Assembly: GCA_001799735.1 (NCBI GenBank)
Contig: MGUA01000012.1
Location: 97,108-161,107 of the forward strand
Reading direction: 5' to 3'
Source: Elusimicrobia bacterium GWB2_63_22
Lineage (GTDB): Bacteria; Elusimicrobiota; Elusimicrobia; Elusimicrobiales; UBA9959
Length of the DNA: 64,000 nt
Below, piece after piece: positions 39,462 to 64,000 of the stretch. A model generated the notes under the pieces. That model worked only from the letters and a program-made list of their open reading frames with translations, ran no database searches and was not told the DNA's origin. The first letter of the stretch is position 1. Each line of letters begins with the position of its first letter. The position numbers were made by a program, and so were the translations under genes.

Positions 39462-39533
39462 GCGGGCTCCGTGTTTTAAATGACCGCTTAACTTATTACA
39501 ATATATTACAACTTTCAGCCGAACGGAGGCTTC

Positions 39534-40763: not shown

Positions 40764-40848
40764 TTGGCACGTCCGCCAAGGGGGTCGGAACGCAAAAACG
40801 TGGTCCAGAAGGTGTCGCTTCGCTCCACACGCACACCGAGCGCTCCAA

Positions 40849-40964
40849 GGTCCGGCCAGGGGGAGGTCCCGAGCGACTTTGGGGAAGGGGGGCCCCGCTT
40901 CGGGGGGGAACCGCGCAACGGTTCCCTGCAGTCCAGGAGCGCGGGACCTCCCCCTGGTTGGACC
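40849..40964 (+). repeat. Structured intergenic element, copy 2 (23-bp closing stem + conserved 56-nt core)
   Basis: 5' arm GGTCCGGCCAGGGGGAGGTCCCG (40849-40871) pairs with 3' arm CGGGACCTCCCCCTGGTTGGACC (40942-40964), with two adjacent G-T positions. The core 40879-40934 is identical to 18412-18467. Lies 86 nt after the deoB stop and upstream of the terminator at 40993. Confidence 0.7.
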
Positions 40965-40992
40965 GGGCACTTGCCAGCCTGCACAAAATAAA

Positions 40993-51043: not shown

Positions 51044-52798
51044 ATGAAAACTATCTATTTCGCGGCGGTCCTGGCCGCGCTATTGCCGGCGGCGGGCTAC
51101 GCCCAGAACCTGACCCCCCAGGGGGCTTCCGTGCACGACTCGGCGGGCACCCTGCGCTCGGACGCCTCCCGTACCGGCAGCTTCACCACGGCGGAGTCCG
51201 TTACGCTGCGCCAGAGCGTGAGCAACTCCGTCACCAGCCTGAACCCCATAGTCTTCACGTTCAAGATCAAGAACCCGGCCGGGGCCGAGGTGTTCACCCA
51301 CTCCGGCAACTCCGCCCCCGGCACGGCCGGCACGGCGCAGACCCAGCTGGCCGGCATAGCCATCTCTTCTTTCTACTCCGCCCCCGGCAACTACACCTTT
51401 GTGGGGACGGCCTCCCTGGACGGCGACACCGTGACCCAGCAGGCCGTGTTCATGATCTCCAGCCCCAACATCACGCTCATCTACCCGCCCTACGGGGCGC
51501 GCGGCCTGTCCGACAAGCCGCTGACCTTCCGCTGGACGGCCAGCGGCGCCGCGCGCTACCGCGTTACCGTAGCCGAGAACGCCGGGCTCTACAACCCGGT
51601 GCACATGGCCCTGAACGCCGGGGAAAGTTACTATTCCTACCCGGCCAGCCCGGCGGAGCCGCGGGAGCAGCTGGTGGCCGACCAGGTCTATCACTGGAAG
51701 GTGGAAGGCCTGGACGGCAGCAACAACAAGATCTCCGAGAGCAGCGTGTACAACTTCTCCATGAAGTCCCTCGCCTCGGCGCAGACCCGCAACATAGCGA
51801 TAACCCTGCTCGAGCTCAGCGCGCCGATCCTGGATTTCGAAAAGCCGGTAAACATGAAGGCCACGCTGTACAACAGCGGCTCCATCACCGAATCCAATAT
51901 CGCGGTCAAGCTGTCGCTGGGGGGGATAGCCGCGCAGGATTCGCCCAAGCAGGTGCTCTCCATAGCGCCGGGGGAGAAACAGGTCCTCGCTTTCACGGCG
52001 TTCATGCCCGGCGGGCAGGAGCAGGGGCTGGCCGTGGCCTGCGCCGACCTGTTCGACGACAATATCCCGGACAACTGCAAGACCATGCTGCTGTCCAAGA
52101 GCTCCGGCGACGCCTCGGCGCCGACCGCCAGGAAGAAGCTCAGCTACGACGAGATGTTCCAGGAGATCCTCAAGCGGCTAGGCCCGGAGGCCGCCAAAGC
52201 CCTGGAGGGTTACACTTTCGAGAGCCTCACCTGCGGCGGCTGCACGCAGGATGACCTGTCGGCCATCATCGCCGCCCTGATCAGCGGCGAGGCGCAGCTG
52301 GTGGACGCCTCCGTGCTCGACGACGGCACTGGCGCGGCGCCCTCGCCCGCGGCCCAGACCGCCGCCTCCTCCGCTTCCGGCGGCGAGGCGCCCGGGGACA
52401 TCAGCGAGAGCTCCCTGGACCTGGCGCCGGTGCGGCATGAAACCCCGGGCGAATGGACCGGCTTCATGGAGCCGCCCAGCGCCAAGGCGCCCTCTTTCTT
52501 CGTGGTGCGCGACCGCAAGGAATGGCGGAAGGTCTGGAAACTCCTCTCCCCGGAGGAGGACCTGCCGGACGTGGATTTTAAGACCAAGATGGTGGTGGGC
52601 GTGGTGGCCGCCCCGCAGGACCGGGCCGAGACCGTGCGCATGCTCGGCAAGCGCAAGACGGACGAAGGAATAGCGTTTGATTACTATGTCATCGAGGCGG
52701 CGGACGGGCAGAAGCCCTCGCTGGCCGCCTATATCTTCAGGATCTACGACAGGTCGGAGGACAAAGCCGACTTCAAGCGGTTGGACGTGAAGAAGTGA
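51044..52798 (+). CDS. Secreted hypothetical protein with 'YR' beta-sandwich and CARDB-like domains (584 aa)
   Basis: Signal peptide MKTIYFAAVLAALLPAAGYA. PLTFRWTASGAARYRVTVAENAGLYNPV...VYHWKVEGLD resembles the repeats of the 329-aa protein at 18918. NIAITLLELSAPILDFEKPVNMKATLYNSGSITESNIAVKLSLGG...LSIAPGEKQVLAF looks CARDB-like. GGAGAG RBS, 13 nt after the upstream stop. Confidence 0.7.
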   Translation: MKTIYFAAVLAALLPAAGYAQNLTPQGASVHDSAGTLRSDASRTGSFTTAESVTLRQSVSNSVTSLNPIVFTFKIKNPAGAEVFTHSGNSAPGTAGTAQTQLAGIAISSFYSAPGNYTFVGTASLDGDTVTQQAVFMISSPNITLIYPPYGARGLSDKPLTFRWTASGAARYRVTVAENAGLYNPVHMALNAGESYYSYPASPAEPREQLVADQVYHWKVEGLDGSNNKISESSVYNFSMKSLASAQTRNIAITLLELSAPILDFEKPVNMKATLYNSGSITESNIAVKLSLGGIAAQDSPKQVLSIAPGEKQVLAFTAFMPGGQEQGLAVACADLFDDNIPDNCKTMLLSKSSGDASAPTARKKLSYDEMFQEILKRLGPEAAKALEGYTFESLTCGGCTQDDLSAIIAALISGEAQLVDASVLDDGTGAAPSPAAQTAASSASGGEAPGDISESSLDLAPVRHETPGEWTGFMEPPSAKAPSFFVVRDRKEWRKVWKLLSPEEDLPDVDFKTKMVVGVVAAPQDRAETVRMLGKRKTDEGIAFDYYVIEAADGQKPSLAAYIFRIYDRSEDKADFKRLDVKK

Positions 52799-52824: not shown

Positions 52825-53559
52825 ATGACCAAGACAATGAAACTGATGGCGGCGGCGGCTGTGGTGGCCGCGGCGTCGCTGGCGGGTTGGGGGCAGGCCG
52901 CTTTCTGCGCGCCTAAGATAGCGGCGGTGACGGTGTATATCACCGGCGAAGTGCAGGTGAAGCGCACGGGCGAGAAAGCCTTCGCGGAGCTCAAGGTGAA
53001 CGACATGCTCTACCCCGGGGACAACATCAAGACGGGTCCCGGCGCCAGGGCGGGCCTGGTAACCAAGGGCGGAGCCGAGGTGCGCCTGAACGAGAACTCG
53101 AACTTCGAGATCTCCGGGGCGGGCAAGCTGCGCGAGATGCTTAACCTCTCGGTCGGGCAGCTGTGGACCAGGATGCTGCACAAGATGGCCAAGATCAACG
53201 TGCGCACCCCGTCGGCCGTCTGCGCCGTGCGCGGCACCGAGGCCGACATCGAGCAGCGCAGCCTCCTGACCGTCAAGGTGTACGAGGGGCACGTGGACGT
53301 GCAGAACTCGCTGGGCAAGCAGTCGCTCAAGGCGGGCCAGATGACCACCGTGGCCGGCGCCAACGCCGCGCCCGAAGCGGCCAAGGCCATGTCGGGCGGC
53401 GACGCCGGCAAATGGCAGGAAGACGTGAAGGTCAGCGACTACGACAAGTTCGTCAAACTGATGGAAGAGAGCGCCGCGTCCGGCAAGAAGCTCAAGACCT
53501 CGGTCAAGATGCCCGACGGCACCGTGAAGCAGATAGAAGGCGGCCTGAAGAAGAAGTAA
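52825..53559 (+). CDS. FecR-domain protein, exported
   Basis: Signal peptide. FecR-domain pattern GEVQVKRTGEKAFAELKVNDMLYPGDNIKTGPGARAGLVTKGGAEVRLNENSNFEI...VRTPSAVCAVRGTE...VKVYEGHVDV. GGAGG RBS. Confidence 0.8.
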   Translation: MTKTMKLMAAAAVVAAASLAGWGQAAFCAPKIAAVTVYITGEVQVKRTGEKAFAELKVNDMLYPGDNIKTGPGARAGLVTKGGAEVRLNENSNFEISGAGKLREMLNLSVGQLWTRMLHKMAKINVRTPSAVCAVRGTEADIEQRSLLTVKVYEGHVDVQNSLGKQSLKAGQMTTVAGANAAPEAAKAMSGGDAGKWQEDVKVSDYDKFVKLMEESAASGKKLKTSVKMPDGTVKQIEGGLKKK

Positions 53560-54537: not shown

Positions 54538-54649
54538 CCCGGCCCGGGATCCCCGGGCCGGCGGTCGGCTTTGAAATAAGCGCAGGAGCCACGGCTGCCG
54601 CGCATATTTGAACGCACGACGGAGTCAGCTGTTTTACGGAGGCGGTCTT

Positions 54650-57600
54650 ATGAAGAAAAACATACTCGCTATCTCTATTTTCCTGCTCGGCTGGGCGGCC
54701 CCGCTGCCGGCGGAGATCATCACCTACCAGGGCCGGCTGAAAGAAGCCAGCCTGCCCGTCAATGACAACCGCCTCTTCCTTTTTGAATTCTGCGATGACG
54801 AATCCGCCGGGGCCTGCACTGCGTCGCCCTCCGGCGCGCAGCCTTTCGCTGTGCAGAACGGTCTCTTTAAATCCACCTTCACCGCGCCCGCCGTAAATCT
54901 GACTTCCGGCCAGTGGTATCTCAAGGTGTCCGTGGCGGGCACCCCTCTGACCCCCCGCGAGCGCCTTACCGCGGTGCCGTACGCCGTTTACGCTTCCTCC
55001 TCCGCCTATTCCTCCATGTCCGTCCAGAAGACGGGGGATACCATGTCCGGGCAGCTGACCCTGGACGGCTCGACACTTACCGTTACCGGCAACGAATTCT
55101 CCGTGGGCGGTTCTACCCTGACGGTAAAATACGGAAATGTCGGCGTAGGCACGCAGAACCCTTTGGGCGCCCTGCACGTGGACCGCGCCGTTAACGCCCC
55201 GCTGCTGGTAGGCGGCCCCACCGTTTCGTACACCGCGGCGGACGCCGCCATACAGGACAGCGGGTCCCTGCTGCTGCGGTCAGCGCTGCTTGCAGGTATC
55301 GGCAGCGAGGCGGATATCGTGGCCGTAGGCAAGGTGACCGGTTGTTTTAATTCCACTCTTTCGCTGTGGACGCGTCCCGACGGCTGTGCCGGGGTAAGCC
55401 CGGTCCGCAGGATGATCGTCAACGAATTCGGCAACGTGGGCATCAGCACCTTCACTCCCCAGGCCCGCCTGGATGTGCTGGCGGCGGGCGCCTCACCGGA
55501 CGCCATCGCCCAGATCTGGCGCGATTCTTCCGGCGTCGTGGTCTCTTCCGTCAGCGCCACCGGCATGGTGATGGGCGTCAAGTTTATCGGCGACGGCTCG
55601 GGCCTTATCAACGTGGCCGCGACCACCGGCGTGGACGCGACCAAAGTGGCCAAGGCCGGGGATACCATGACCGGGCAGCTGACCTTGGACGCCTCCACGC
55701 TGACGGTCACCGGCAACGCCTTCAGCGTGTCCGGCTCCACCCTGGTGGTGGCGGACGGCAAGGTCGGTATCGGGGCCGAAGTCCCCCAGGCCAAGCTGCA
55801 CATAAGTTCCGGCGGGATGATAATAGACGGCGATGTCGCGGGGGTCATGCTGCACGTAAAAGCTCCGCCCAGCGGGACCACCACCCGCATCAGCCTGGAA
55901 GGCTCCGACAGCAACAGCTTCCAGGCCTACGAATTAAAACAGCCGAGCCGGACCTGGTGGATAGCGCAGAACCTTGGCAATTTCAGCGACGGCCGCCTGC
56001 AGATCTTCGACGCCTCCGCCTCCAATTACCGGGCCGTCTTCTTTGCCACCGGCGACATCGGGTTGGGGGGGACCGACGCGCAGACCGCCCCGGTCCTGAT
56101 GGTGAAGCCTTCCGGCCTTGTCGGCATAGGCGCGAATTCCCCCGGGGCCGCTTTGGACGTGCGGGCCCCCGGCACGATTGACATGGCGCAGATCTGGCGC
56201 GATCCCGCCGGCACCGTAGTCAGTTCCGTCTCCGTCTCCGGAGTTATGCGGGCGATACAGTTCGTTGGCGACGGCTCGGGGCTGACCAACGTGGCCGCGG
56301 CCACCGGCGTGGACGCCAGCAAGGTGGCCAAGGCCGGCGACACCATGACCGGCCAGCTGACGCTGGCCGCTTCCACGCTGACAGTTACAGGCAACGCCTT
56401 CAGCGTGGGCGGCTCCACGCTGGTAGTGGACGGCGGCAATGTCGGTATCGGCGTGGCCTCCCCCTGGTCCAGGCTTACTATAGCGGGCGGCGTCGGCAAC
56501 GAGATAGAGATCCCTTCCGCCGGCACCAACGTGCAGATCCTGGGCACCGGCTCTCCGGCCCAGTTCCAGATAGGCGGAGGCACCTCCTTCGAGGCCTTGA
56601 TCGGGGCCACTCCCCGCCTGGTCATCGACGGCGCCGGCAACACTTCCGTCAGCACCCTCGCCGCCTCCGGCAGCATCACCGCGGCGCGCTACCAGATAAA
56701 TGGCGCCAACGTGCTTGCGCTGTTGCCCGGCATAGACAGCCTGGGGGTGGGAAAGTTCGCCGGGCTTGTAAACACCGGGGACAGCAACGTGTTTCTCGGC
56801 TATGCTGCGGGTTACTACAACACTACGGCGGCCCAAAACACCTTCATCGGCTATGAGGCCGGGTATTCCAATGTCAGCGGAGGTAATAATTCTTTCCTTG
56901 GCTATAAAGCCGGAGCCTCCAACCTTACAGGCGGTAACAATTCGCTTGTGGGCTATCAGACGGCCTATTTTAACCAGACGGGTTCTGCTAACGCCATCTT
57001 CGGCAACGACGCCGGTGGTTTCGGCAGCGCGGCCTCGAACTCTTTCTCCAGTTCGACTATTGTCGGGTACAGGGGTGGTTACAACCTGACTACGGGCTCG
57101 GATAACACTTTTCTCGGCTGGCAGTCCGGATATAACGTCACTACCGGCAACGGCAATATAATCATCGGCTACGGCCAGAACGCGCAGGCCGCCGGCGCCA
57201 ACAGTTCTCTCAACATCGGCGGGGTGCTGTTCGGCGACCTGGCCGCCGGGACCATAGGTATCTCCACGGGGAACCCGCAGGCCGCGCTGGACATGGTTTC
57301 CACCGCCACGGACCCCAATGTGTACGCGCAGCTCTGGCGCAACAGCGCGGGCGTTATCGTGGGGTCGATGTCCTCTACCGGCAATATGACCGCCGTGCGT
57401 TACGCCGGCGACGGCTCCGGCCTGACCAACGTGGCGGCTACCACCGGCGTGGACGCCAGCAAGGTGGCCAAGGCCGGCGACACCATGACCGGGCAGCTGA
57501 CCCTGGCGGGCAGTTCCCTGACCATGCATACAGCCGGCGTCGTTAATTTTACCGCCGACGCGGCCGGGCATGTGGGCATAAACGGCTACCCTGACGCCGC

Positions 57601-60600
57601 GTCCGGGCTGCATATCTCGGGGACCGGCTCCTACGAAGCCGGGATCAGGCTGAACAACGGCGGCACGGTATGGAGCATGAGCAATACCGGCGGCCCGCTT
57701 TCATTCATAAAAGTGGATGGTTCCACGTACACGCCGTTCACGTTCTCCCAGACCGGAGTGCTTACGGCGGTCAGCAGCCCTGCGGGCAACAGTGAGGTCC
57801 ACGCCGACCGTTTTTACGGCAGCGGCGCTAACTTGACCGGGGTGCTGGACTCCACCAAACTTCCTCTCTCCGGGGGAACAATGAGCGGCGGTTTGATCAT
57901 AGGAGACGTGTCAGGGACGGCCTTCAGGGTGGGCGGCTCCACTCTTACCGTGACTAACGGCAGGGTCGGAATCAATACCGCCTCCCCCGCCGAGGCTCTG
58001 GATATCGGTTCCGGCAATCTGCGCCTGATGGCCGGAGGGATGCTGGAGTGGGGCAGCGCGGCTCTCTCCATTTTAGCCTCCGCCCCCGGCATGGCTTTTT
58101 ATGAAGGAGGCCAGGTGCGTCTCAACATCAGTTCCTTTGGCGGGTACACCTCCGTGGGCGCGGGCGATATTTTAGGCGTCAATATAGATACCACCTCCGC
58201 CCTGCACGTGGCGGCCAAGGCCAGCCCGGGCGCCGACGGCAGGGTGGCCGTTTTCGGCGATCTCCGCAGCAACGGTTCCGTCTCCGGCCAGTATCTGGCC
58301 TCCGGCAACTTTGAAACTACCATAGAGGGCGCGGACAGCGCGGACCTGGCCGCCGGCCTGCGCGCCGTTATCAGGCATGAGAATGCCGGGGTCGGAGTGG
58401 TTAAGAAAGCCTACGGGCTCATCGTGGATGACCTGCAGAACAGCGGGGGCACGATAGACACCACCTACGGCGTCTATATCGGAACGCAGACGGCGGGAGC
58501 GCAGGTCAATCCCCCGTACAGCCTGTACGCGGCCGACCAGGCAGCCTGGAATTATTTCGGCGGGCGCGTCGGCATCGGCACGGAGTCGCCCCAGGATATG
58601 CTGCACATGATCGGCGCCAACCCGTGGATACAGATAAGGGATACCGGCGGCACCAAGGGCGCCTCTATCGGCATGGACGTCAACAAGCTGCGCTTCGACG
58701 AATCGGGCATGGGTAACAGGATGGTCCTGGACCTCAACACTTCCCGCGTGGGCATCAACACGCTTGGCCCTAACTATACCCTGGACGTGCAGGGCGGCTA
58801 TGTTAACGCCTCGGGCGGTCTCTGCATAAACGATAACTGCGTCAGCGACTGGGGCAGCGCCGGCGTCTGGAGCAGGAACGGCTTGGTTGTGTCTCCCTCC
58901 AACGCCTCCAATAACGTGCTGATACAGTCCACGCTGACCGTGGCAGGCAACGCCTTCAGCGTGGGCGGGTCTACGCTGGTCGTCGACGCGGGAAGGGTCG
59001 GCATCGGCGTCCCGAACCCCACCGTCGCGCTGGACGTCAGCGGAGGGATAAACGCTACTACCATTTACGCGGGGAATTCCGTGTCGGCTGCCAGCATAGT
59101 GAAGGTGAACGGCGGCGGCATGGTCGCCCTGGAATCTGTGGCGGGGAACTCCAATATTTCCGCCACCGCCGCGGGCGCTAAGAACATGACCTTCACGACC
59201 GACTCGGTGGAGAGGATGCGCATAGACAGCAACGGGAGGGTAGGCGTGGGAACCGCTTTGCCGGCCTACGCGCTGCATGTTTCTTCCGGCGACGCTTCCG
59301 GCTGGAGGCCTGACGTGATGATAGAGAGTACGGCTTCAGGTACCCCGCAGCTCCTGCTGCAGTCAGGCGGGCACCAGGGCCGTATTGCGACCTCCGGCAG
59401 CAACGGCGGGACGTACATCGGCAGCATGACCAACGACTTCGTGAGCCTGCATACCAACGGCGTCGAAGTGATTCGCCTGGCTACGGACAAAAAAGTCGGT
59501 ATTGGCGCTACCTCTCCCGGAGCGCTCCTGGAGATCCGGGACAACGCCGCCGCCAATAGCTACATGTTATTGATCGGGACCGGGGCGTCCGGTTCCTTCG
59601 TAAGCATTTCGTCCATGGGCGTAGTCGGCATAGGCTACGGCAATCCTTCCACCAGTACCGTCCTGCACGCCCAGGCCGTGGCCACCAACCTCACCGCGGG
59701 CGAAGACGTGGCCGCCGGTCTTATAGGCAGCGCGCGCGCGATAGGCACCGGCCCCGAGGACGTGGCGGTGGGCGGTGACTTCCGGGCTGAAGCCGACGGC
59801 AACCAGAACCTGGCCTTCCTGGCGGGCCTGCACGCCAACGTGGAGCGCACCAGCGCCGGCACCGGCGTAATAGCCAACGCGGTGGGCCTCTATATCGACA
59901 TGCCGCGCAACGGCTCGTCCCCCGGAGGCTTCACTGATACCTACGGCATTTACATAGCCACCCAGACCTCCGGGAACCAGACCAACCTGCCGTACGCCGT
60001 CTATTCGGAGGACCAGAACGCCCGCGCCTATTTCGCGGGTAAGATGGGCCTTGGTACGGCCAGCCCCCGCTACGCGCTGGAGATCTCCAGCGCGGCCGGG
60101 AGTTCCGACCAGATGCTGGTGGTCTCCACCGGCACGGATATGGTCTTCGGCGTAAAGGGTAACGGCGAGGTCTACGGCGCCAAGTTCATCGGCGACGGTT
60201 CGGGGCTGGTCAACGTCGTTATGAACGGCGGCACTATGTCCCAGCCGCTCGTCATTAATGCGGATACGGCCGTCTATCCCTCCAATCTGGTGACTGCCGG
60301 GCTGGTCATCTCTACGTCGGGTGCGCTGCAGACCGCCGGCATGGGCAACGGCGGCATAGTCGGCAACCCGCGCGGTATCGGCGCGGTGGACCTGCAGACT
60401 AGCCGGTTAGCGGCTACCGAAGTGGCTTCCGCGGCGTACTCCGTGGTCGGCGGCGGCAAGGGGAACAAGGCGACGATTGCATTCGCGGTCGCTTCCGGCG
60501 GCAACAACAACATCGCCTCGGGCGGTTATTCTGTGGTAGGCGGCGGAGCCTCCAACACGTCCAGTAATGGCTGGACTACCGTTGGCGGCGGCTCTAGCAA

Positions 60601-62773
60601 CGTGGCTTCGCAGAATAACGCTACGGTCGGCGGAGGAAGTGCTAACATCGCTTCCGGCTATTCCGCCACCGTCGGCGGCGGCAGCAGTAACTTGGTTTCA
60701 GGGAACATTTCCGCCGTGGGCGGCGGCAGCAATAACTCGGTTTCAGGAATCATTTCGGCCGTGGGCGGCGGCGAGTACAACGTCGTCTCCGGCTCGGATT
60801 CAGCTGTCGCCGGCGGTTCCTATAATACCGTGGTCGGTACTTCCGCCGTGGTGGCGGGTGGTTATAACAACAAGGCCGGGGGGGTGTACTCCTTCATTGG
60901 CGGCGGTTCCGGAAATACGGCCCTGGATTACTCGCTGGTCGCCGGCGGGGCCTCCAACAACGCCATGGGCTACTATACCGCCATCGGCGGCGGCCGCGGC
61001 AACTATGGCGCCTACTTCGCGACCATAGGCGGCGGCTCCAACAACAGGGTCGAAGGGTACTTTGCGGTTGTTTCCGGAGGCGAGAATAACCTCTCCACCG
61101 CCCCGTATTCGGTGGTGGGCGGCGGCCTGTTCAATACCTCCAGCGGCACCTACTCCGGCGTGCTGGCCGGGCATATGAACGAGGCTTTAGGCACAGCGGC
61201 CGCCATCGGCGGCGGCCGCAGCAACAGGGCGACCGGCGAAAATTCCTTTGTCGGCGGCGGCAGCGGCAATATCGCCTTTGACCTCGGCACCACGGTGGCC
61301 GGCGGCGTCACTAATACCGCCAACGAGGCCTACTCGTTCGTGGGCGGCGGCAACCAGAACAACGCCGCGACAGGTTATACCGCTATAGCCGGCGGCTATC
61401 AGAACACTATCGGGACCGTCGGCGGGGACGGCGCCTACTCTTTCATCGGGGCCGGCTACAGCAACGAGACCCAGACCGATTACACCGTTATCGGCGGCGG
61501 TATAGATAACTACATCACTAACGCCGGCATGTACAGCGTGATCGGCGGCGGCGGCGGCAATACGGTCAGCGCGCAATACGCCGCCGTAGTGGGCGGCCTG
61601 AATAATTCCGCGAAGGGCCAGTATTCTTTCGTCGGCGGCGGCGGGCCTAACGCCACCATTACCGGCAACGAGGCCGCGGGGGACTTCTCTGCGGTGGTGG
61701 GCGGCAGTTCCAATACCGTGACGGCCCAGCTCGGCTTTGTCGGCGGCGGCGATGATAACCACGTGTACGGCGACAGGGGCGTGGCGGTGGGCGGCGCCAG
61801 GAACACGGCCGGCGTGACCGGGACCAAGTTCCATGCCGCGGTGGTGGGCGGCCAGGATAACAGGGCCATAGGCGAGGGCTCCTTCGTGGGCGGCGGCGCC
61901 GCCAACACGGCCTTCGGCAATTATTCCGTAGTGCCGGGCGGGCACAGCAACTGGGCCGGCGGCAGTAATTCTTTCGCGGCCGGCTATACTTCCACCGCGG
62001 CCGCCGACGGCTCTTTTGCCTGGAACGACGCCAGCGTGGATTCGCTCGTCAATACCTACACGAACCAGGTGCAGTTCAGGGCCACCGGCGGCTTCTGGGT
62101 GTCCACCGGGACCATACACGCGACGCCGGGTCTGTTTGTCAGCATGGCCAACTGGGTGGGTATGGGCACCGACGCGCCTGCCAAGATGCTGCATATTAAA
62201 AATCAGAACGTGGTGCCGGATATACGCCTGGAGCGCGGCTTCGGCGGGAATTATTGGGATATCGGCGGCCTTAGCGGGACGTATTTTAATATCGCCTATG
62301 GCGGCACCATGCACATAAGTGTCTCTGATAGCGGCGGCCAGGTGGGTATAGGCGTGAGTCCTACCACCAGCCGGCTCCAGATCAACGGAGACCTGGGCCT
62401 TGGCGACGGCACGGCGGTTGGCAATGCTCCGATAGTTATACGGCTTACAGCGGCGGCGGCGGTGCAGGACGGCGACGTGGTGGTAGCGAGCGGCGGCAAT
62501 CAGTTCAGCACTACACTTACCGGGAACGACTACCGGGCTATCGGGGTCGCGGTCGGGGCGACCGCCGGGGGGAGCGTCGGGAAGGTCGCGGTAGGTGGCG
62601 TGGCGCTGGTCAACTGTGCGGCTGGCCCTACCGCCGGTCAGCACGCTGTTGCCAGTGCGACGGCCGGGCAGGCCGCGGGAACGATCACCCCTGCAGCCGG
62701 GAGCAGCATCGGCCAATTCCTTACCAGCTGCGGGACCCCTTCGGCCGGCAAGGCTTACCTGTTGCTGAATTAA
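54650..62773 (+). CDS. Giant secreted fibre-like protein: tail-fibre-type modules + N-x-F-x-G-Y repeats + ~1.6 kb YadA-head-like G-G-G-x-x-N repeats (2707 aa from ATG 54650)
   Basis: I prefer ATG 54650 (MKKNILAISIFLLGWAAPLPAE, GGAGG RBS 8 nt upstream) to the track's TTG 54608. Five or six K-x-GDTM(T/S)GQLTL / LPLSGGTMSGGL motifs and at least a dozen (G/N)xVGIGTxxPxxxLxV motifs, both hallmarks of phage tail-fibre-like proteins. NTFIGYEAGYSN-type repeats. A long array of SVVGGGxxNxAxGxx units. No T9SS-type C-terminal domain. Confidence 0.85.
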   Translation: MKKNILAISIFLLGWAAPLPAEIITYQGRLKEASLPVNDNRLFLFEFCDDESAGACTASPSGAQPFAVQNGLFKSTFTAPAVNLTSGQWYLKVSVAGTPLTPRERLTAVPYAVYASSSAYSSMSVQKTGDTMSGQLTLDGSTLTVTGNEFSVGGSTLTVKYGNVGVGTQNPLGALHVDRAVNAPLLVGGPTVSYTAADAAIQDSGSLLLRSALLAGIGSEADIVAVGKVTGCFNSTLSLWTRPDGCAGVSPVRRMIVNEFGNVGISTFTPQARLDVLAAGASPDAIAQIWRDSSGVVVSSVSATGMVMGVKFIGDGSGLINVAATTGVDATKVAKAGDTMTGQLTLDASTLTVTGNAFSVSGSTLVVADGKVGIGAEVPQAKLHISSGGMIIDGDVAGVMLHVKAPPSGTTTRISLEGSDSNSFQAYELKQPSRTWWIAQNLGNFSDGRLQIFDASASNYRAVFFATGDIGLGGTDAQTAPVLMVKPSGLVGIGANSPGAALDVRAPGTIDMAQIWRDPAGTVVSSVSVSGVMRAIQFVGDGSGLTNVAAATGVDASKVAKAGDTMTGQLTLAASTLTVTGNAFSVGGSTLVVDGGNVGIGVASPWSRLTIAGGVGNEIEIPSAGTNVQILGTGSPAQFQIGGGTSFEALIGATPRLVIDGAGNTSVSTLAASGSITAARYQINGANVLALLPGIDSLGVGKFAGLVNTGDSNVFLGYAAGYYNTTAAQNTFIGYEAGYSNVSGGNNSFLGYKAGASNLTGGNNSLVGYQTAYFNQTGSANAIFGNDAGGFGSAASNSFSSSTIVGYRGGYNLTTGSDNTFLGWQSGYNVTTGNGNIIIGYGQNAQAAGANSSLNIGGVLFGDLAAGTIGISTGNPQAALDMVSTATDPNVYAQLWRNSAGVIVGSMSSTGNMTAVRYAGDGSGLTNVAATTGVDASKVAKAGDTMTGQLTLAGSSLTMHTAGVVNFTADAAGHVGINGYPDAASGLHISGTGSYEAGIRLNNGGTVWSMSNTGGPLSFIKVDGSTYTPFTFSQTGVLTAVSSPAGNSEVHADRFYGSGANLTGVLDSTKLPLSGGTMSGGLIIGDVSGTAFRVGGSTLTVTNGRVGINTASPAEALDIGSGNLRLMAGGMLEWGSAALSILASAPGMAFYEGGQVRLNISSFGGYTSVGAGDILGVNIDTTSALHVAAKASPGADGRVAVFGDLRSNGSVSGQYLASGNFETTIEGADSADLAAGLRAVIRHENAGVGVVKKAYGLIVDDLQNSGGTIDTTYGVYIGTQTAGAQVNPPYSLYAADQAAWNYFGGRVGIGTESPQDMLHMIGANPWIQIRDTGGTKGASIGMDVNKLRFDESGMGNRMVLDLNTSRVGINTLGPNYTLDVQGGYVNASGGLCINDNCVSDWGSAGVWSRNGLVVSPSNASNNVLIQSTLTVAGNAFSVGGSTLVVDAGRVGIGVPNPTVALDVSGGINATTIYAGNSVSAASIVKVNGGGMVALESVAGNSNISATAAGAKNMTFTTDSVERMRIDSNGRVGVGTALPAYALHVSSGDASGWRPDVMIESTASGTPQLLLQSGGHQGRIATSGSNGGTYIGSMTNDFVSLHTNGVEVIRLATDKKVGIGATSPGALLEIRDNAAANSYMLLIGTGASGSFVSISSMGVVGIGYGNPSTSTVLHAQAVATNLTAGEDVAAGLIGSARAIGTGPEDVAVGGDFRAEADGNQNLAFLAGLHANVERTSAGTGVIANAVGLYIDMPRNGSSPGGFTDTYGIYIATQTSGNQTNLPYAVYSEDQNARAYFAGKMGLGTASPRYALEISSAAGSSDQMLVVSTGTDMVFGVKGNGEVYGAKFIGDGSGLVNVVMNGGTMSQPLVINADTAVYPSNLVTAGLVISTSGALQTAGMGNGGIVGNPRGIGAVDLQTSRLAATEVASAAYSVVGGGKGNKATIAFAVASGGNNNIASGGYSVVGGGASNTSSNGWTTVGGGSSNVASQNNATVGGGSANIASGYSATVGGGSSNLVSGNISAVGGGSNNSVSGIISAVGGGEYNVVSGSDSAVAGGSYNTVVGTSAVVAGGYNNKAGGVYSFIGGGSGNTALDYSLVAGGASNNAMGYYTAIGGGRGNYGAYFATIGGGSNNRVEGYFAVVSGGENNLSTAPYSVVGGGLFNTSSGTYSGVLAGHMNEALGTAAAIGGGRSNRATGENSFVGGGSGNIAFDLGTTVAGGVTNTANEAYSFVGGGNQNNAATGYTAIAGGYQNTIGTVGGDGAYSFIGAGYSNETQTDYTVIGGGIDNYITNAGMYSVIGGGGGNTVSAQYAAVVGGLNNSAKGQYSFVGGGGPNATITGNEAAGDFSAVVGGSSNTVTAQLGFVGGGDDNHVYGDRGVAVGGARNTAGVTGTKFHAAVVGGQDNRAIGEGSFVGGGAANTAFGNYSVVPGGHSNWAGGSNSFAAGYTSTAAADGSFAWNDASVDSLVNTYTNQVQFRATGGFWVSTGTIHATPGLFVSMANWVGMGTDAPAKMLHIKNQNVVPDIRLERGFGGNYWDIGGLSGTYFNIAYGGTMHISVSDSGGQVGIGVSPTTSRLQINGDLGLGDGTAVGNAPIVIRLTAAAAVQDGDVVVASGGNQFSTTLTGNDYRAIGVAVGATAGGSVGKVAVGGVALVNCAAGPTAGQHAVASATAGQAAGTITPAAGSSIGQFLTSCGTPSAGKAYLLLN
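56783..57178 (+). repeat. Intragenic N-x-F-(L/I)-G-Y-x-A-G-x-x-N-x-(T/S)-G repeat block
   Basis: NVFLGYAAGYYNTTAAQNTFIGYEAGYSNVSGGNNSFLGYKAGASNLTGGNNSLVGYQTAYFNQTGSANAIFG...DNTFLGWQSGYNVTTGNGNIIIGYG. Confidence 0.7.
60431..61995 (+). repeat. Intragenic array of ~35-40 degenerate 14-15-aa units (x-S-x-V-G-G-G-x-x-N-x-A-x-G), YadA-head / beta-roll-like
   Basis: AYSVVGGGKGNKATIAFAVASGGNNNIASGGYSVVGGGASNTSSNGWTTVGGGSSNVASQNNATVGGGSANIASGYSATVGGGSSNLVSGNISAVGGGSNNSVSG..., continuing to ...NSFAAGYTS. Confidence 0.75.
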
Positions 62774-62816: not shown

Positions 62817-64000
62817 ATGATAGCGCGAACGATGATGGCGGCGCTGCTTTTGCTGGCGCAAACAGCCGCCGCGGGGACTAAAAGCGCCGGAAACCTGGCC
62901 GTGCTCGGGGACTCCCACGAATTTTCTTCGGGGAGCCTGGGCCTGGCGGGGGGGCTTTATTCCCTGGACGGGGCCATCCCCGGCATAGCTCACGACGTTT
63001 CAGCGCCGGGCGTAACCGTCCTCGAGTCCGGCTTCTACTCGCGCCTGGTCTCTACGCCGGCCGCTCCCGGCTACGGTACCGTCTCCACCGCCGCCTACGC
63101 GCTGGGCTGGACCGGCAGCGGCGCGCCGGTAAGCAACCCCGCCGGTACCACCTACGGCCTGGCCGTCTCCACCTGGGCCCAGGCCGAGCCCTACATGGCC
63201 TTCTATACCACCGGCGCCGACGGCTACCCGGTGGAAACCCTGGCGCCTAATGCCAGCTACTACAATTTTATCTACGCCAATTACATGGACGGGGACTATT
63301 CCGGCCTCGCCTCCACTACCGCCGTCACCTACGCCGCCGTGCCTTCCTCCTGGTCGTTCACCTTCTCGGACGCCGGGCATAACACGGTCAGCCTCTCTTT
63401 CTCGGATTTCGAGAATACCCCGCCGTACACGGGGTCCGGCTGGGGGGAACTGACCGCCTCTTCGCTGGCCGCCGCCGGCTACGGGCAGGCCTCGGTGGTC
63501 TACGGCTCCCACGTTTTCATCTCGGGCGGCTTTAACGGCGTGTCTTTCTCCAGCGCGGTCTACCGCGCCTCGCTGGCCCCGGCTACCGGCCTGTCGGCCT
63601 GGGCGAGCGCCGGCTATATGCCCGCCGCTCGCTACGGCCACCAACTGGTCGCCGCCCGCGGGCGCCTGTACCTGCTGGGCGGCTACGATTCCGCCGGCTC
63701 CCACGCCGAGGTCTGGTCCGCCGACGTTTCCACCGCCGGCGAGCTGGGCGCCTGGACGCCCGAGACGTCCCTGCCCGAGCCCGTCTATTTCCACGCGGCC
63801 GTAGTGGCCGCGGACCGCATAATCGTTTCCGGCGGCTACCGCAGCGGCGTCGGCGTGCTGTCCGCGGTATACGCCAACCGGCCCTATGACGACGGTTCGC
63901 TGCAGGGCACCTGGGCGATCTCCGACCCGCTGCCTTCCCCCAGGTATTCCCACGGCATGACCCTGGCCGGCGGGCGCAGGCTCTACGTCACCGGCGGCCG
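62817..64000 (+). CDS. Exported Kelch-repeat (beta-propeller) protein, N-terminal 394 aa (continues past the right window edge)
   Basis: Not in the track (no stop in the window). Manual translation from ATG 62817: MIARTMMAALLLLAQTAAAGTKSAG... (signal peptide), later ...SHVFISGGFNGVSFSSAVYRA...ARYGHQLVAARGRLYLLGGYDSAGSHAEVWSA...VYFHAAVVAADRIIVSGGYRS...PRYSHGMTLAGGRRLYVTGG. These are repeated Kelch-type blades. Starts 43 nt after the giant gene. Confidence 0.7.
   Translation, partial: MIARTMMAALLLLAQTAAAGTKSAGNLAVLGDSHEFSSGSLGLAGGLYSLDGAIPGIAHDVSAPGVTVLESGFYSRLVSTPAAPGYGTVSTAAYALGWTGSGAPVSNPAGTTYGLAVSTWAQAEPYMAFYTTGADGYPVETLAPNASYYNFIYANYMDGDYSGLASTTAVTYAAVPSSWSFTFSDAGHNTVSLSFSDFENTPPYTGSGWGELTASSLAAAGYGQASVVYGSHVFISGGFNGVSFSSAVYRASLAPATGLSAWASAGYMPAARYGHQLVAARGRLYLLGGYDSAGSHAEVWSADVSTAGELGAWTPETSLPEPVYFHAAVVAADRIIVSGGYRSGVGVLSAVYANRPYDDGSLQGTWAISDPLPSPRYSHGMTLAGGRRLYVTGG

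What the first reader, a model, noticed from the sequence alone, without database searches (positions are those of the whole stretch)
54650..62773. 2707-aa signal-peptide protein that is a mosaic of phage-tail-fibre modules and a YadA-head-like repeat array, encoded directly after the PorV-like barrel
Read from the ORF:
- Recurrent ~60-aa modules [W]RD.(S/A)G.VVSSVS..G......F.GDGSGL.NVAA.TGVDA.KVAKAGDTMTGQLTL.ASTLTVTGNAFSV.GSTLVV..G.VGIG at about nt 55589-55775, 56267-56455 and 57407-57520. Partial versions occur at about 55020, 57820, 58920 and 60187.
- The related LPLSGGTMSGGL motif.
- At least a dozen xVGIGTxxPxxxLxV motifs.
- An NxFxGYxAG repeat block (56783-57178).
- About 1.6 kb of SxVGGGxxNxAxG units (60431-61995), followed by DGSFAWND...VQFRATGGFWVSTG.
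By established knowledge, K/L-x-GGTMTG-x-L and VGIGT..P motifs typify phage tail fibres and the 'tail fibre domain' proteins with endosialidase-chaperone ends. The GGG-x-x-N arrays resemble the left-handed beta-roll of trimeric autotransporter heads. Yet this protein has a Sec signal peptide, no phage genes around it, no autotransporter anchor and no T9SS-type C-terminal domain. Its position (PorV-like barrel, then fibre, then Kelch protein, with gaps of ~110 and 43 bp) suggests a cell-surface fibre or adhesin domesticated from phage receptor-binding proteins. It may use the adjacent barrel as its outer-membrane anchor. The last ~120 aa (DGDVVVASGG...IGVAVGATAGGSVGKVAVGGVALVNCAAG...) form a distinct Gly/Ala/Val-rich beta-type domain that I cannot assign.
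Basis: partly seen in the sequence, partly recalled or inferred. Interest (0 to 1): 0.65.

Follow-up and report, generated by a model that had tools for sequence, protein, structure and literature searches.

The report
Giant phage-like cell-surface fibre, Elusimicrobia
This gene encodes a 2,707-residue secreted protein that most likely forms a long three-stranded surface fibre built from phage-tail-fibre-like parts. It resembles the prey-binding fibres of the predator Bdellovibrio, and across dozens of Elusimicrobia genomes it sits next to an outer-membrane barrel gene that may be its anchor.

Summary
ORF 54650-62773 (+) encodes a 2,707-aa protein with a signal peptide, annotated only as a hypothetical protein (OGR65097.1, Elusimicrobia bacterium GWB2_63_22). 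It is not an assembly artefact.

Its layout matches the "mosaic adhesive trimer" (MAT) fibres described in Bdellovibrio in 2024:
- a conserved ~100-aa beta-sandwich domain directly after the signal peptide;
- a long stalk with 14 capping loops of the type G-pi-G-T-x-x-P-x-x-x-L, with sequence matches to Bd3182, Bd2133 and phage tail fibres;
- a 15-residue-period beta-roll array similar to the UspA1 head (E 3e-17);
- a swappable C-terminal tip.

Orthologues at the same locus carry other tips instead, including C1q, Lcl_C and an FGE-sulfatase (C-type-lectin) domain.

In 52 Elusimicrobia loci, 32 of 48 assessable fibre genes have a PorV/PorQ-family barrel gene directly upstream. This sometimes occurs as a bare two-gene pair. 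That supports the anchor or export-partner idea, but only by synteny.

The protein is not a trimeric autotransporter, not a T9SS C-terminal-signal cargo and not a prophage gene. Trimer formation, surface location and homology of the N-domain to the Bdellovibrio one remain untested.

The parts
54638..54642 (+). Ribosome-binding site GGAGG, 7 nt before the ATG at 54650
   Evidence: read from the sequence
54650..62773 (+). Fibre gene, 2,707 aa plus stop codon (OGR65097.1, annotated 'hypothetical protein A2X31_08050')
54650..54712 (+). Sec-type signal peptide MKKNILAISIFLLGWAAPLPA, with the likely cleavage before E22. There is no lipobox cysteine.
   Evidence: By inspection and hydropathy. The same leader is conserved in the giant relatives P0076-P0084.
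54713..55024 (+). Conserved N-terminal beta-sandwich domain (aa 22-125; motif TYQGRLK...NGLF...PRE.LT.VPYA). Proposed to be the cell-proximal base.
   Evidence: It sits directly after the signal peptide in about 50 relatives and in 478 profile hits. The AlphaFold2 model has pLDDT 88-97 over aa 21-110. There is no solved-structure relative. It was not found in phage records or viral contigs.
55412..55819 (+). Stalk module copy 1 (aa 255-390): capping loop, WRDxxG, GDGSGLxNV, KAGDTMTGQLTL, TVTGNAFSVxGSTLVV, VGIG
56096..56494 (+). Stalk module copy 2 (aa 483-615), 76-77% identical to copy 1
57245..57619 (+). Stalk module copy 3 (aa 866-990)
56783..57184 (+). Repeat block of about 17 residues per unit, N-x-F-x-G-Y-x-A-G (aa 712-845)
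   Evidence: It shows 37% identity to a phage protein annotated endo-N-acetylneuraminidase (H21).
58250..58609 (+). Internal duplicated domain, copy A (aa 1201-1320)
   Evidence: 34-47% identical (three overlapping segments) to aa 1691-1812. No Pfam hit.
59720..60085 (+). Internal duplicated domain, copy B (aa 1691-1812)
58535..59719 (+). Stalk region with repeated capping loops. This is the part most similar to phage tail fibres and to the Bdellovibrio MAT fibres Bd3182 and Bd2133.
   Evidence: tblastn against phages gives 24-31% identity with E 3e-8 to 1e-3. 8ojn matches at E 1e-6 and 8ond at E 1.9e-4.
60431..61966 (+). Array of about 30 units with a 15-residue period, S-x-V-G-G-G-x-x-N-x-A-x-G (aa 1928-2439). 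Predicted left-handed beta-roll of the UspA1/YadA-head type.
   Evidence: UspA1 head 3pr7 matches at E 3.2e-17, and the grass ice-binding beta-roll 3ult at E 0.013. Pfam LbR_Ice_bind matches at E 1.5e-4, below threshold. Periodicity is shown.
61967..62383 (+). Array-terminating segment (DGSFAWND...VQFRATGGFWVSTG) followed by the last two capping-loop turns (aa 2440-2578)
   Evidence: The region is conserved in the giant relatives. Its monomer model has low confidence.
62384..62770 (+). C-terminal tip domain (aa 2579-2707) with a phage capsid cement/decoration-like fold
   Evidence: PF09956 Phage_cement_2 matches at E 2.7e-4 with 21.7 bits, against a cut-off of 24. The AlphaFold2 model has pLDDT 85-98 for the last ~130 aa. 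Foldseek finds HFTV1 8qsy at E 2.6e-5 and phi29 gp8.5 N-base 6qyy at E 5.9e-5 (TM 0.69), plus the Pam3, TW1, T1 and XM1 decoration proteins, and many BFVD phage proteins.
53602..54537 (+). Upstream PorV/PorQ-family outer-membrane barrel gene (311 aa from ATG 53602; databases call it as 307 aa from 53614). Candidate anchor or export partner.
   Evidence: NF033709 scores 161.6 bits against a cut-off of 90. The PorV and PorQ equivalog models are both below their cut-offs. It lies directly upstream of the fibre gene in 32 of 48 assessable Elusimicrobia loci.
52825..53559 (+). FecR-domain protein (244 aa), a conserved member of the cluster
51044..52798 (+). 584-aa secreted protein of unknown function, a conserved member of the cluster
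46324..51030 (+). 1,568-aa surface protein (CarboxypepD_reg x4, fn3) with a T9SS type-A C-terminal domain. First gene of the cluster.
62817..64000 (+). Start of the 1,534-aa Kelch beta-propeller protein, which carries a Por_Secre_tail C-terminal domain. It runs off the window.

Best explanation
The gene encodes a very long, probably homotrimeric, cell-surface fibre (adhesin) of the Bdellovibrio MAT type, made by an Elusimicrobia bacterium.

Proposed mechanism:
1. The protein is exported by Sec through its signal peptide (read from the sequence).
2. The conserved ~100-aa N-terminal beta-sandwich forms the cell-proximal base (inferred).
3. That base docks to, or is exported with the help of, the PorV/PorQ-family outer-membrane barrel encoded directly upstream (inferred from gene order only).
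4. About 2,450 residues of stalk project the tip away from the cell. The stalk holds phage-tail-fibre-like segments with 14 capping loops, a 17-residue repeat block, two copies of an inserted domain and a ~510-aa UspA1-type beta-roll. Scaling from the published Bd3182 model (922 aa, ~550 A) gives a length on the order of 150 nm (inference).
5. The C-terminal knob, which has the fold of phage capsid cement/decoration proteins, is the distal ligand-binding tip (inferred).

Orthologues keep the N-terminal base and the locus but vary the stalk length (284-3,240 aa) and exchange the tip. This indicates diversifying selection on what the fibre binds.
For: Architecture:
- Signal peptide and RBS.
- The N-domain always follows the leader in relatives and is confidently modelled as a beta-sandwich.
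- There are 14 capping loops against 0.03 expected, matching the motif published for MAT fibres (PMC10769870).
- Direct sequence hits to Bd3182 (8ojn, E 1e-6) and Bd2133 (8ond, E 1.9e-4).
- Hits to phage tail fibres.
- UspA1 head hit at E 3e-17.
- Tip fold.
- Some N-domain relatives end in Peptidase_S74, as the S74 class of MATs does (P0022, P0045).

Tip swapping at the same locus:
- the cement-like tip in this window and in L014, L020, L023 and L061;
- C1q in L026 (27 bits, above the cut-off of 23.7), with similar ...VVKLN-type ends in five other loci;
- Lcl_C in L042 (44 bits), where it lies upstream of a different, unassigned terminal domain;
- FGE-sulfatase (C-type-lectin fold) in L056 (45.7 bits).

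The modules with solved relatives (UspA1 head, Bd3182 beta-helix, the phi29 head-fibre base) and the C1q tips of orthologues are, from established knowledge, obligate trimers.

Linkage to the barrel:
- All 52 related loci found are in Elusimicrobia genomes.
- A PorV/Q-like gene lies within 700 nt upstream on the same strand in 32 of 48 fibre genes with enough upstream sequence, mostly 43-143 nt away.
- In L045 and L031 the pair sits among housekeeping genes. The other cluster genes and detectable T9SS-CTD proteins are absent upstream, and downstream only weak p1568-like segments (L031) and an unassigned 1,248-aa protein (L045) are seen.

Context and integrity:
- The surrounding region is chromosomal and free of phage genes.
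- Closely spaced cysteine pairs (48/56, 232/246, 1392/1397, 2656/2694) fit an exported protein.
Against: - Trimer formation, surface exposure and adhesion are not shown. Only monomer models could be made.
- No Bdellovibrio protein was named among the top 120 profile hits.
- N-domain proteins outside the Elusimicrobia cluster usually lack an adjacent barrel gene. Sixteen of the 48 Elusimicrobia fibre genes also lack one directly upstream.
- In most loci T9SS-CTD proteins are in the same cluster, so the barrel might serve them instead.
- The UspA1 match has a large compositional-bias term, and Pfam Hep_Hag/YadA models do not hit.
- The tip's Pfam score is below the gathering threshold.
Confidence: 0.7

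Rival explanations
1. The protein is a type IX secretion cargo. Its C-terminal Gly/Ala/Val-rich domain would be a novel T9SS sorting signal recognised by the adjacent PorV-like shuttle, as for the flanking CTD-bearing proteins.
For: - The gene lies between two proteins with T9SS type-A C-terminal domains and next to a PorV/PorQ-family gene.
- The cement-like domain sits at the extreme C-terminus in most of its 89 carriers, with a median of 1 residue after it. Several carriers have Bacteroidota-style leaders.
- From established knowledge, giant T9SS adhesins paired with a dedicated barrel are known (SprB with SprF).
Against: - No match to TIGR04183/PF18962 or to any type-B CTD model.
- Orthologues in the same locus end in unrelated domains such as C1q, FGE-sulfatase and others. 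The C-terminus is therefore not the conserved, signal-like part; the N-terminus is.
- The domain's fold is that of capsid decoration proteins, not the Ig-like CTD.
- The N-domain is also unrelated to the CTD (hhalign probability 2%).
Confidence: 0.1
2. The protein is a trimeric autotransporter adhesin (type Vc) with an unusual or unrecognised anchor.
For: The ~510-aa array matches the UspA1 head (3pr7, E 3e-17; 3ntn, E 0.049). The protein also has a signal peptide and is very long.
Against: - No YadA_anchor, neck or coiled-coil stalk family hit, even at E up to 10.
- The C-terminal domain is a confidently modelled soluble beta-domain of cement type, not a 4-strand-per-chain barrel segment.
- Orthologues have other C-termini.
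Confidence: 0.03
3. The gene is a tail fibre of a prophage, tailocin or other phage-derived particle, not a cellular appendage.
For: - Sequence similarity to annotated phage tail fibres.
- A tip fold shared with phage capsid proteins and with long phage fibre-like proteins.
- A 170-aa homologue of the tip lies in a phage-like contig next to an SU10-type adaptor and an S74 fibre.
Against: - No phage structural, replication or lysis genes in 64 kb of window or in the 10 kb beyond it.
- The locus is syntenic across dozens of Elusimicrobia species.
- The protein has a Sec signal peptide.
- The N-domain, and close relatives of the tip, were not found in IMG/VR scans.
Confidence: 0.04
4. The ORF is an artefact: a repeat mis-assembly or a non-expressed pseudogene-like ORF in GC-rich DNA.
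For: The source is a short-read metagenome, the gene is repetitive, and long antisense ORFs overlap it.
Against: - The identical 2,707-aa product is found on 8 contigs from different assemblers and samples.
- A 99.8% identical variant has the same length.
- DNA repeats are divergent (64-84% identity, at most 294 nt).
- Intact relatives of 1,498-3,240 aa share both ends of the protein.
- A good RBS precedes the start codon.
Confidence: 0.02

Closest known systems
Bdellovibrio bacteriovorus MAT (mosaic adhesive trimer) fibres, e.g. Bd3182, Bd2133, Bd2439, Bd2740 (Caulton et al. 2024, PMC10769870)
   Same: - Signal peptide followed by a conserved beta-rich N-terminal domain.
- A long stalk with G-pi-G-T-x-x-P-x-x-x-L capping loops.
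- Direct sequence matches to Bd3182 and Bd2133.
- Variable C-terminal tips, including TNF/C1q-like and C-type-lectin-fold tips in orthologues.
- S74-ended relatives.
- The published view that the N-terminus is cell-proximal and binds an unidentified surface element.
   Different: - About 2.7 times longer than typical MATs (~1,000 aa).
- Contains a UspA1-type beta-roll array.
- The tip is a capsid cement/decoration fold, which is not among the tips that paper describes.
- The host is a groundwater Elusimicrobia bacterium that is not known to be a predator.
- It is genetically coupled to a PorV/PorQ-family barrel.
- Homology of the N-domain to the Bdellovibrio one is not tested.
Trimeric autotransporter adhesin heads (Moraxella UspA1, Yersinia YadA)
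   Same: An array of GGG-x-x-N-x-A-x-G units with a period of 14-16 residues, aligning in register with the UspA1 head over about 230 residues.
   Different: No membrane anchor, neck or coiled-coil stalk. No Pfam Hep_Hag/YadA hit. The array is an internal stalk segment, not the distal head.
Phage tail fibres and tailspikes with endosialidase-type stalks (phage T5 pb1/LTF, K1F endosialidase, cyanophage and pelagiphage tail fibres)
   Same: Capping-loop beta-helix segments, GxTMTGxL motifs and 24-31% identity over 200-370 aa.
   Different: The protein has a Sec leader, a cellular N-terminal base in place of a virion-attachment domain, and no S74 chaperone. It lies in a conserved chromosomal locus.
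Phage capsid cement/decoration proteins and the phi29 head-fibre base (PF09956 Phage_cement_2; HFTV1, Pam3, TW1, T1; phi29 gp8.5 N-base 6qyy)
   Same: The fold of the last 129 aa (TM 0.5-0.7 normalised to the target, E 1e-5 to 1e-3) and a near-threshold Pfam match.
   Different: Here the domain is the C-terminal end of a cellular fibre rather than a capsid-bound protein. Sequence identity is only 14-19%.
T9SS giant adhesins paired with a dedicated barrel (Flavobacterium SprB with SprF; PorV-PorU and PorQ-PorZ complexes)
   Same: A very large surface filament gene lies adjacent to a PorV/P/Q-type outer-membrane barrel gene. PorV-family barrels are known to hold partner proteins at the surface (PMC5562754; established knowledge).
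   Different: The fibre has no T9SS C-terminal domain. The conserved element is N-terminal. Whether Elusimicrobia have a T9SS core is unknown here.

Membership tests
MAT (mosaic adhesive trimer) fibre family | N-terminal signal peptide | tested here: met
   MKKNILAISIFLLGWAAPLPA|E, assessed by inspection and hydropathy. No dedicated signal-peptide predictor was available.
MAT (mosaic adhesive trimer) fibre family | [quoted passage not shown] | not testable with these tools
   A conserved ~100-aa beta-sandwich is present in exactly that position. No full-length Bdellovibrio sequence or AFDB library was available for comparison.
MAT (mosaic adhesive trimer) fibre family | Beta-helical stalk with capping loops G-pi-G-T-x-x-P-x-x-x-L | tested here: met
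   14 motifs against 0.03 expected. phmmer hits to Bd3182 (E 1e-6) and Bd2133 (E 1.9e-4).
MAT (mosaic adhesive trimer) fibre family | Variable C-terminal tip (S74 or an adhesive fold) exchanged between family members | tested here: met
   Orthologous loci carry cement-like, C1q, FGE-sulfatase or other ends; an Lcl_C domain lies near one C-terminus. S74-ended relatives P0022 and P0045 also exist.
MAT (mosaic adhesive trimer) fibre family | Homotrimeric fibre exposed on the cell surface | not testable with these tools
   Only monomer prediction was available. There are no experimental data.
Trimeric autotransporter adhesin (type Vc) | C-terminal YadA-type membrane anchor | tested here: not met
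   No YadA_anchor hit at E up to 10. The C-terminus is a cement-like soluble beta-domain.
Trimeric autotransporter adhesin (type Vc) | YadA/UspA1-type head repeats | tested here: inconclusive
   UspA1 head 3pr7 matches at E 3.2e-17 but with a high bias term. No Hep_Hag/YadA_head Pfam hit; only LbR_Ice_bind, below threshold.
T9SS cargo | Type-A (TIGR04183/PF18962) or type-B C-terminal sorting domain | tested here: not met
   No hit. The neighbouring proteins do hit. The C-terminus is not conserved among orthologues.
Phage or prophage tail fibre | Encoded within a phage structural gene module | tested here: not met
   No phage genes in the window or its flanks. The chromosomal locus is conserved in 52 Elusimicrobia loci.
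Phage_cement_2 (PF09956) for the C-terminal domain | Score at or above the Pfam gathering threshold | tested here: not met
   21.7 bits against a cut-off of 24 (E 2.7e-4), covering profile positions 6-96 of 103.
Phage_cement_2 (PF09956) for the C-terminal domain | Fold shared with capsid cement/decoration proteins | tested here: met
   Foldseek against PDB gives 11 hits at E <= 1e-3, all phage or archaeal-virus capsid decoration or head-fibre-base chains. BFVD gives 109 hits at E <= 1e-3.
PorV/PorQ family (upstream neighbour) | NCBIfam NF033709 at or above its cut-off | tested here: met
   161.6 bits against 90. The PorQ (110.9 against 220) and PorV (59.4 against 250) equivalog models are not met, so it is a family member but neither PorV nor PorQ proper.

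The most novel reading that the evidence does not exclude
The PorV/PorQ-family barrel and the conserved N-terminal beta-sandwich would together form a previously unrecognised two-gene module. This module would export and/or anchor trimeric phage-like fibres on the outer membrane without using a T9SS C-terminal signal. It would also point to the missing 'surface element' that holds MAT-type fibres, including those of Bdellovibrio.
Probability: 0.25. Interest if true: 0.8.

Novelty: new variant of a known kind. Interest (0 to 1): 0.6.

Why it matters
MAT fibres were described only in 2024, as the prey-recognition tools of Bdellovibrio. How they are anchored and exported is an open question.

This locus shows the same building plan in Elusimicrobia, a poorly known and mostly uncultured phylum, at nearly three times the size. 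It adds a new tip type borrowed from phage capsid decoration proteins and a trimeric-autotransporter-like beta-roll in the stalk.

The conserved pairing with a PorV/PorQ-family barrel gives a concrete, testable candidate for the anchor or export partner. The tip swapping at a fixed locus gives a natural series for studying what these bacteria bind. It also shows that phage fibre, phage capsid and bacterial adhesin modules are freely recombined in cellular genomes.

Tried and rejected
- A full-length protein search in the 5.8-billion-sequence database timed out. I used the N-terminal 330 aa, the C-terminal 268 aa and an N-domain profile instead.
- Pfam, NCBIfam and PHROGs on the whole protein gave nothing. 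Only segment-wise scans gave weak hits.
- Foldseek of the N-domain against PDB gave only generic beta-sandwiches (best E 0.066). A profile search against PDB sequences gave nothing meaningful.
- The broad N-domain alignment was too diverse for locus scanning, so I used a closer subset.
- The MAT paper's supplements held no sequences or relevant tables as text.
- A literature search for DUF2190/cement protein returned only barnacle papers. Searches for Elusimicrobia with T9SS, PorV or tail fibre found nothing relevant.
- IMG/VR scans for the N-domain and for close tip relatives were negative.
- The idea that the N-domain mimics a T9SS C-terminal domain was rejected (hhalign probability 2%).
- Promoter and terminator scans were at background level.
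- The idea that barrel adjacency is universal for the N-domain family was rejected. It is absent in four of five non-cluster contexts and in the two contexts with short N-domain proteins.


Full report
**1. The observation**

The ORF is real. It runs from 54608 to 62773 on the + strand. The ATG at 54650 has a GGAGG seven bases upstream and gives a 2,707-aa product.

- GDGSGLxNV occurs at nt 55589, 56267, 57407 and 60191.
- G(D/G)TM(S/T)GxL occurs five times, including LPLSGGTMSGGL at aa 1070-1082.
- There are 14 capping motifs of the VGIGTxxPxxxLxV type.
- There are four strict NxFxGYxAG units at 56786-57104.

In 2,000 composition-preserving shuffles, the capping motif occurred 0.03 times on average (maximum 2) and GxTMTGxL 0.001 times.

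Self-comparison shows three full modules (aa 255-390, 483-615, 866-990) that are 67-77% identical. Partial copies lie at aa 115-190, 1066-1130, 1424-1479 and 1797-1880.

The SxVGGGxxNxAxG array (aa 1928-2440) has a sharp 15-residue period. Residue identity is 0.35 at lag 15 and 0.30 at lag 30, against about 0.1 elsewhere.

**2. Source and integrity**

By exact match, the protein is OGR65097.1, "hypothetical protein A2X31_08050", of the MAG Elusimicrobia bacterium GWB2_63_22.

The same 2,707-aa sequence is encoded on 8 contigs from independent assemblies. A second variant differs by 5 substitutions and no gaps. DNA-level repeats within the gene are only 64-84% identical and at most 294 nt long. 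An assembly artefact is therefore very unlikely.

The window is ordinary chromosome. It carries FeoB, a YgiQ-type radical SAM enzyme, an aminotransferase, an alpha-2-macroglobulin, peptidases, a glycosyltransferase and a nucleoside transporter. No phage genes occur in the window or in the 10 kb beyond it.

**3. What the parts are**

Whole-protein scans against Pfam, NCBIfam and PHROGs gave nothing. Sequence comparison with solved structures was informative:
- The array at aa 1946-2178 aligns in register with the Moraxella UspA1 head (3pr7, E 3.2e-17). It also aligns weakly with the grass ice-binding left-handed beta-roll.
- Two stalk stretches (aa 1319-1384 and 1510-1562) match chain 8ojn_C. 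A further stretch matches 8ond.

Those two entries are Bd3182 and Bd2133 of Bdellovibrio bacteriovorus, founding members of the "mosaic adhesive trimer" (MAT) family (PMC10769870). That paper defines MATs by four features:
- a signal peptide;
- a conserved beta-rich N-terminal domain of ~130 aa;
- a meandering trimeric beta-helical fibre with capping loops of consensus G-pi-G-T-x-x-P-x-x-x-L;
- variable tips, either an S74 chaperone/protease or adhesive folds such as TNF-like and C-type-lectin domains.

tblastn against 50,697 phage records gave weak but significant matches (24-31% identity, E 3e-8 to 1e-3). They cover aa ~1296-1690 and hit annotated tail fibres of cyanophages and pelagiphages. 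One match covers the NxFxGY block. No phage match covers the N-terminal domain.

**4. The N-terminal domain**

Residues 22-125 are conserved directly after the signal peptide. The motif is TYQGRLK ... NGLF ... PRE.LT.VPYA. It is seen in about 50 retrieved relatives and in 478 profile hits from several phyla.

Two relatives (P0022, P0045) combine this domain with capping loops and a classical S74 end (...SDQRLK...). That is the architecture of the S74 class of MATs.

An AlphaFold2 model built on a 36-sequence alignment gives a confident beta-sandwich (pLDDT 88-97 over aa 21-110). It has no significant solved-structure neighbour (best E 0.066). This agrees with the published remark that the MAT N-domain has no PDB homologue.

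The domain was not found in IMG/VR viral contigs. I could not compare it directly with a Bdellovibrio N-domain, because no such sequence or model was reachable.

**5. The C-terminal domain**

Scanned alone, the last 129 aa match PF09956 (Phage_cement_2, formerly DUF2190) at E 2.7e-4 and 21.7 bits. This is just under the 24-bit cut-off and covers profile positions 6-96 of 103.

An exhaustive HMMER search with the last 268 aa found 219 relatives. Among the 89 of these that a BLASTP with the last 129 aa aligned, the domain almost always ends within one residue of the C-terminus, in proteins of 113 to 3,152 aa. A subset has the domain at the N-terminus instead.

With a 56-sequence alignment, AlphaFold2 models the last ~130 residues at pLDDT 85-98. 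Foldseek against the PDB returns only viral capsid accessory proteins at E <= 1e-3:
- the Haloferax tailed virus 1 decoration protein (E 2.6e-5);
- the N-terminal base of the phi29 head fibre gp8.5 (E 5.9e-5, TM 0.69, rmsd 3.5 A);
- the cement or decoration proteins of Pam3, TW1 and phiCD508, with T1 and XM1 following just above that threshold (E 1.4e-3 and 1.9e-3).

BFVD gives 109 hits at E <= 1e-3. They include short decoration-size proteins and long proteins annotated as tail-fibre-like.

A 170-aa homologue (P0075) lies in a phage-like contig next to an SU10-type adaptor and an S74 fibre.

**6. Relatives and the locus**

Ten or more giant relatives (1,498-3,152 aa) share the leader, the N-domain and the tip. 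They differ in their counts of capping loops, GGxxN units and GxTMTGxL modules.

A scan of one genome per species with the N-domain found 52 loci, all in Elusimicrobia MAGs. In most of them the gene order of the window is kept:
1. a 1,568-aa CarboxypepD_reg/fn3 protein with a T9SS C-terminal domain;
2. a 584-aa protein;
3. a FecR-domain protein;
4. a PorV/PorQ-family barrel;
5. the fibre;
6. a Kelch protein with a T9SS C-terminal domain.

Of 48 fibre genes with at least 1.2 kb of upstream sequence, 32 have a PorV/Q-like gene within 700 nt upstream on the same strand, mostly 43-143 nt away. Six more loci that are cut short upstream also show one.

In L045 and L031 the barrel-fibre pair stands among unrelated housekeeping genes: an M3 peptidase, DUF6901 and a rhomboid protease in one, a glycerate kinase and a histidine kinase in the other. 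The p584, FecR and Kelch genes are absent, and my searches detected no T9SS-CTD protein there; only weak p1568-like segments lie downstream in L031. The minimal conserved unit is therefore the pair.

Outside this cluster, N-domain proteins usually have no adjacent barrel. One metagenomic locus (L006) repeats the constellation in another order.

**7. Tip swapping**

At orthologous loci the fibre length ranges from 284 to 3,240 aa and the C-terminus changes:
- The cement-like tip is found in the window and in L014, L020, L023 and L061.
- C1q is found in L026 (27 bits, above threshold). Similar "...VVKLN"-type ends occur in L013, L018, L019, L022 and L033.
- Lcl_C (44 bits) occurs in L042, upstream of a different, unassigned terminal domain.
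- An FGE-sulfatase (C-type-lectin-fold) domain (45.7 bits) is found in L056.
- At least three further unassigned tips exist.

TNF/C1q-like and C-type-lectin tips are the types solved for the Bdellovibrio MATs.

This pattern, with a constant N-terminus and variable C-terminus, argues that the N-terminus is cell-proximal and the C-terminus is the distal binding end. It also argues against the C-terminal domain being a secretion signal.

**8. Most likely mechanism**

Shown from sequence and comparison:
- a Sec leader;
- a modular make-up;
- homology of stalk segments to trimeric fibres;
- the fold of the tip;
- conserved linkage to the barrel gene.

Inferred:
- The protein forms a homotrimer. The UspA1 head, the Bd3182 beta-helix, C1q and, I believe, most of these capsid decoration proteins are trimers (from established knowledge).
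- The N-domain forms a base held at the outer membrane, plausibly by the PorV/Q-family barrel. By analogy, PorV and PorQ hold PorU and PorZ, and SprF serves SprB (established knowledge; PMC5562754 for PorV).
- The stalk extends on the order of 150 nm, by scaling from Bd3182 (922 aa, ~550 A).
- The tip binds a ligand on a particle or on another cell.

How a folded trimer would cross the outer membrane is unknown here, as it is for the Bdellovibrio MATs.

**9. Rivals**

- *T9SS cargo.* No type-A or type-B C-terminal domain is present. The C-termini are not conserved among orthologues. The N-domain is unrelated to the CTD (hhalign probability 2%).
- *Trimeric autotransporter.* No anchor, neck or Hep_Hag hit is found, and the C-terminus is soluble.
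- *Prophage or tailocin fibre.* The locus is a conserved chromosomal region without phage genes, the protein has a signal peptide, and the N-domain was not found in viral collections.
- *Artefact.* Excluded, as set out in section 2.

**10. Comparison, novelty and score**

The protein works like a MAT fibre and meets three of the four sequence-level criteria. The fourth, homology of the N-domain, is met in position and character but is untested against a Bdellovibrio sequence.

It differs from the described MATs in five ways:
- its size;
- a TAA-type beta-roll in the stalk;
- a capsid-decoration-fold tip;
- its host phylum;
- the conserved pairing with a PorV/PorQ-family barrel inside a cluster of T9SS-CTD surface proteins.

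I found no paper describing these Elusimicrobia fibres. I rate it a new variant of a known kind, with interest 0.6.

The most novel reading still open is that the barrel plus the N-domain form a distinct anchoring or export module for trimeric fibres. That would also address the open question of what holds MAT fibres on the cell. I put its probability at about 0.25.

Noticed in passing
window 54539-54561: A perfect 10-bp GC-rich inverted repeat (CCGGCCCGGG ATC CCCGGGCCGG) lies immediately after the PorV/Q-like stop codon and 88 nt before the fibre start. It is not followed by a T-run, so it is not a canonical intrinsic terminator. It might modulate read-through or mRNA stability between the barrel and fibre genes.
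   Followed up: partly
L013, L018, L019, L022, L026, L033, L042, L056, L027/L049, L017/L025/L032, L029/L037/L039 (fibre gene 3' ends): Orthologous fibre genes in the same locus end in at least seven different tip domains. Those identified are C1q and an FGE-sulfatase (C-type-lectin) domain, plus an Lcl_C domain near the end of L042. Several are unassigned, for example ends reading ...ELWAFR, ...KFYSG..GG.RKK and ...GKWVIISGQGVWIAT.
   Followed up: partly
L034, L047, L048, L053: Some Elusimicrobia genomes carry two N-domain fibre genes in tandem. L047 also has two PorV/Q-like genes. This suggests local duplication of the module.
   Followed up: no
L009 167-679 (P0075): A 170-aa stand-alone homologue of the fibre tip sits in a phage-like contig, upstream of an SU10-type adaptor gene and near a Peptidase_S74 fibre gene. 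That is the position expected for a head decoration protein.
   Followed up: partly
L062 6001-6630, and a JGI 3300047160 contig (P0261): In other phyla the N-domain also occurs as short stand-alone proteins of 184-209 aa. In both cases it is followed by a ~379-aa and a ~520-570-aa protein, with SLH-domain proteins nearby. This may be another envelope-docking context for the same domain.
   Followed up: no
window 19911-23279 (+), 46324-51030 (+) and 62817->64000 (+): Several large secreted proteins in the window end in T9SS-like C-terminal domains: an M6 peptidase with a FlgD_ig-type end, the 1,568-aa CarboxypepD_reg/fn3 protein, and the Kelch protein. The phylum is not known for type IX secretion. 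Whether a T9SS core exists in this genome could not be checked.
   Followed up: no
window 12385-18360 (+) and 36237-40970 (-): Two other giant genes are present: a 1,991-aa bacterial alpha-2-macroglobulin and a 1,576-aa fusion of M1 and M28 peptidase domains with a C-terminal PDZ domain.
   Followed up: no
window 30061-31620 (-): A 518-aa protein combines CsgG/FlgO/LpoB-like N-terminal similarity with a VWA domain. This is an unusual lipoprotein-like architecture.
   Followed up: no
window 55934-57613 (-), 58172-59278 (-), 61187-62716 (-): Long antisense ORFs of 368-559 aa overlap the fibre gene. They are most likely by-products of GC-rich, Gly/Ala-rich coding sequence rather than genes.
   Followed up: no
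L007 3814-5631: In one relative, the gene directly downstream of an N-domain fibre encodes a Peptidase_C25 (gingipain/PorU-type) protein. This may be another link between these fibres and T9SS-like surface machinery.
   Followed up: no
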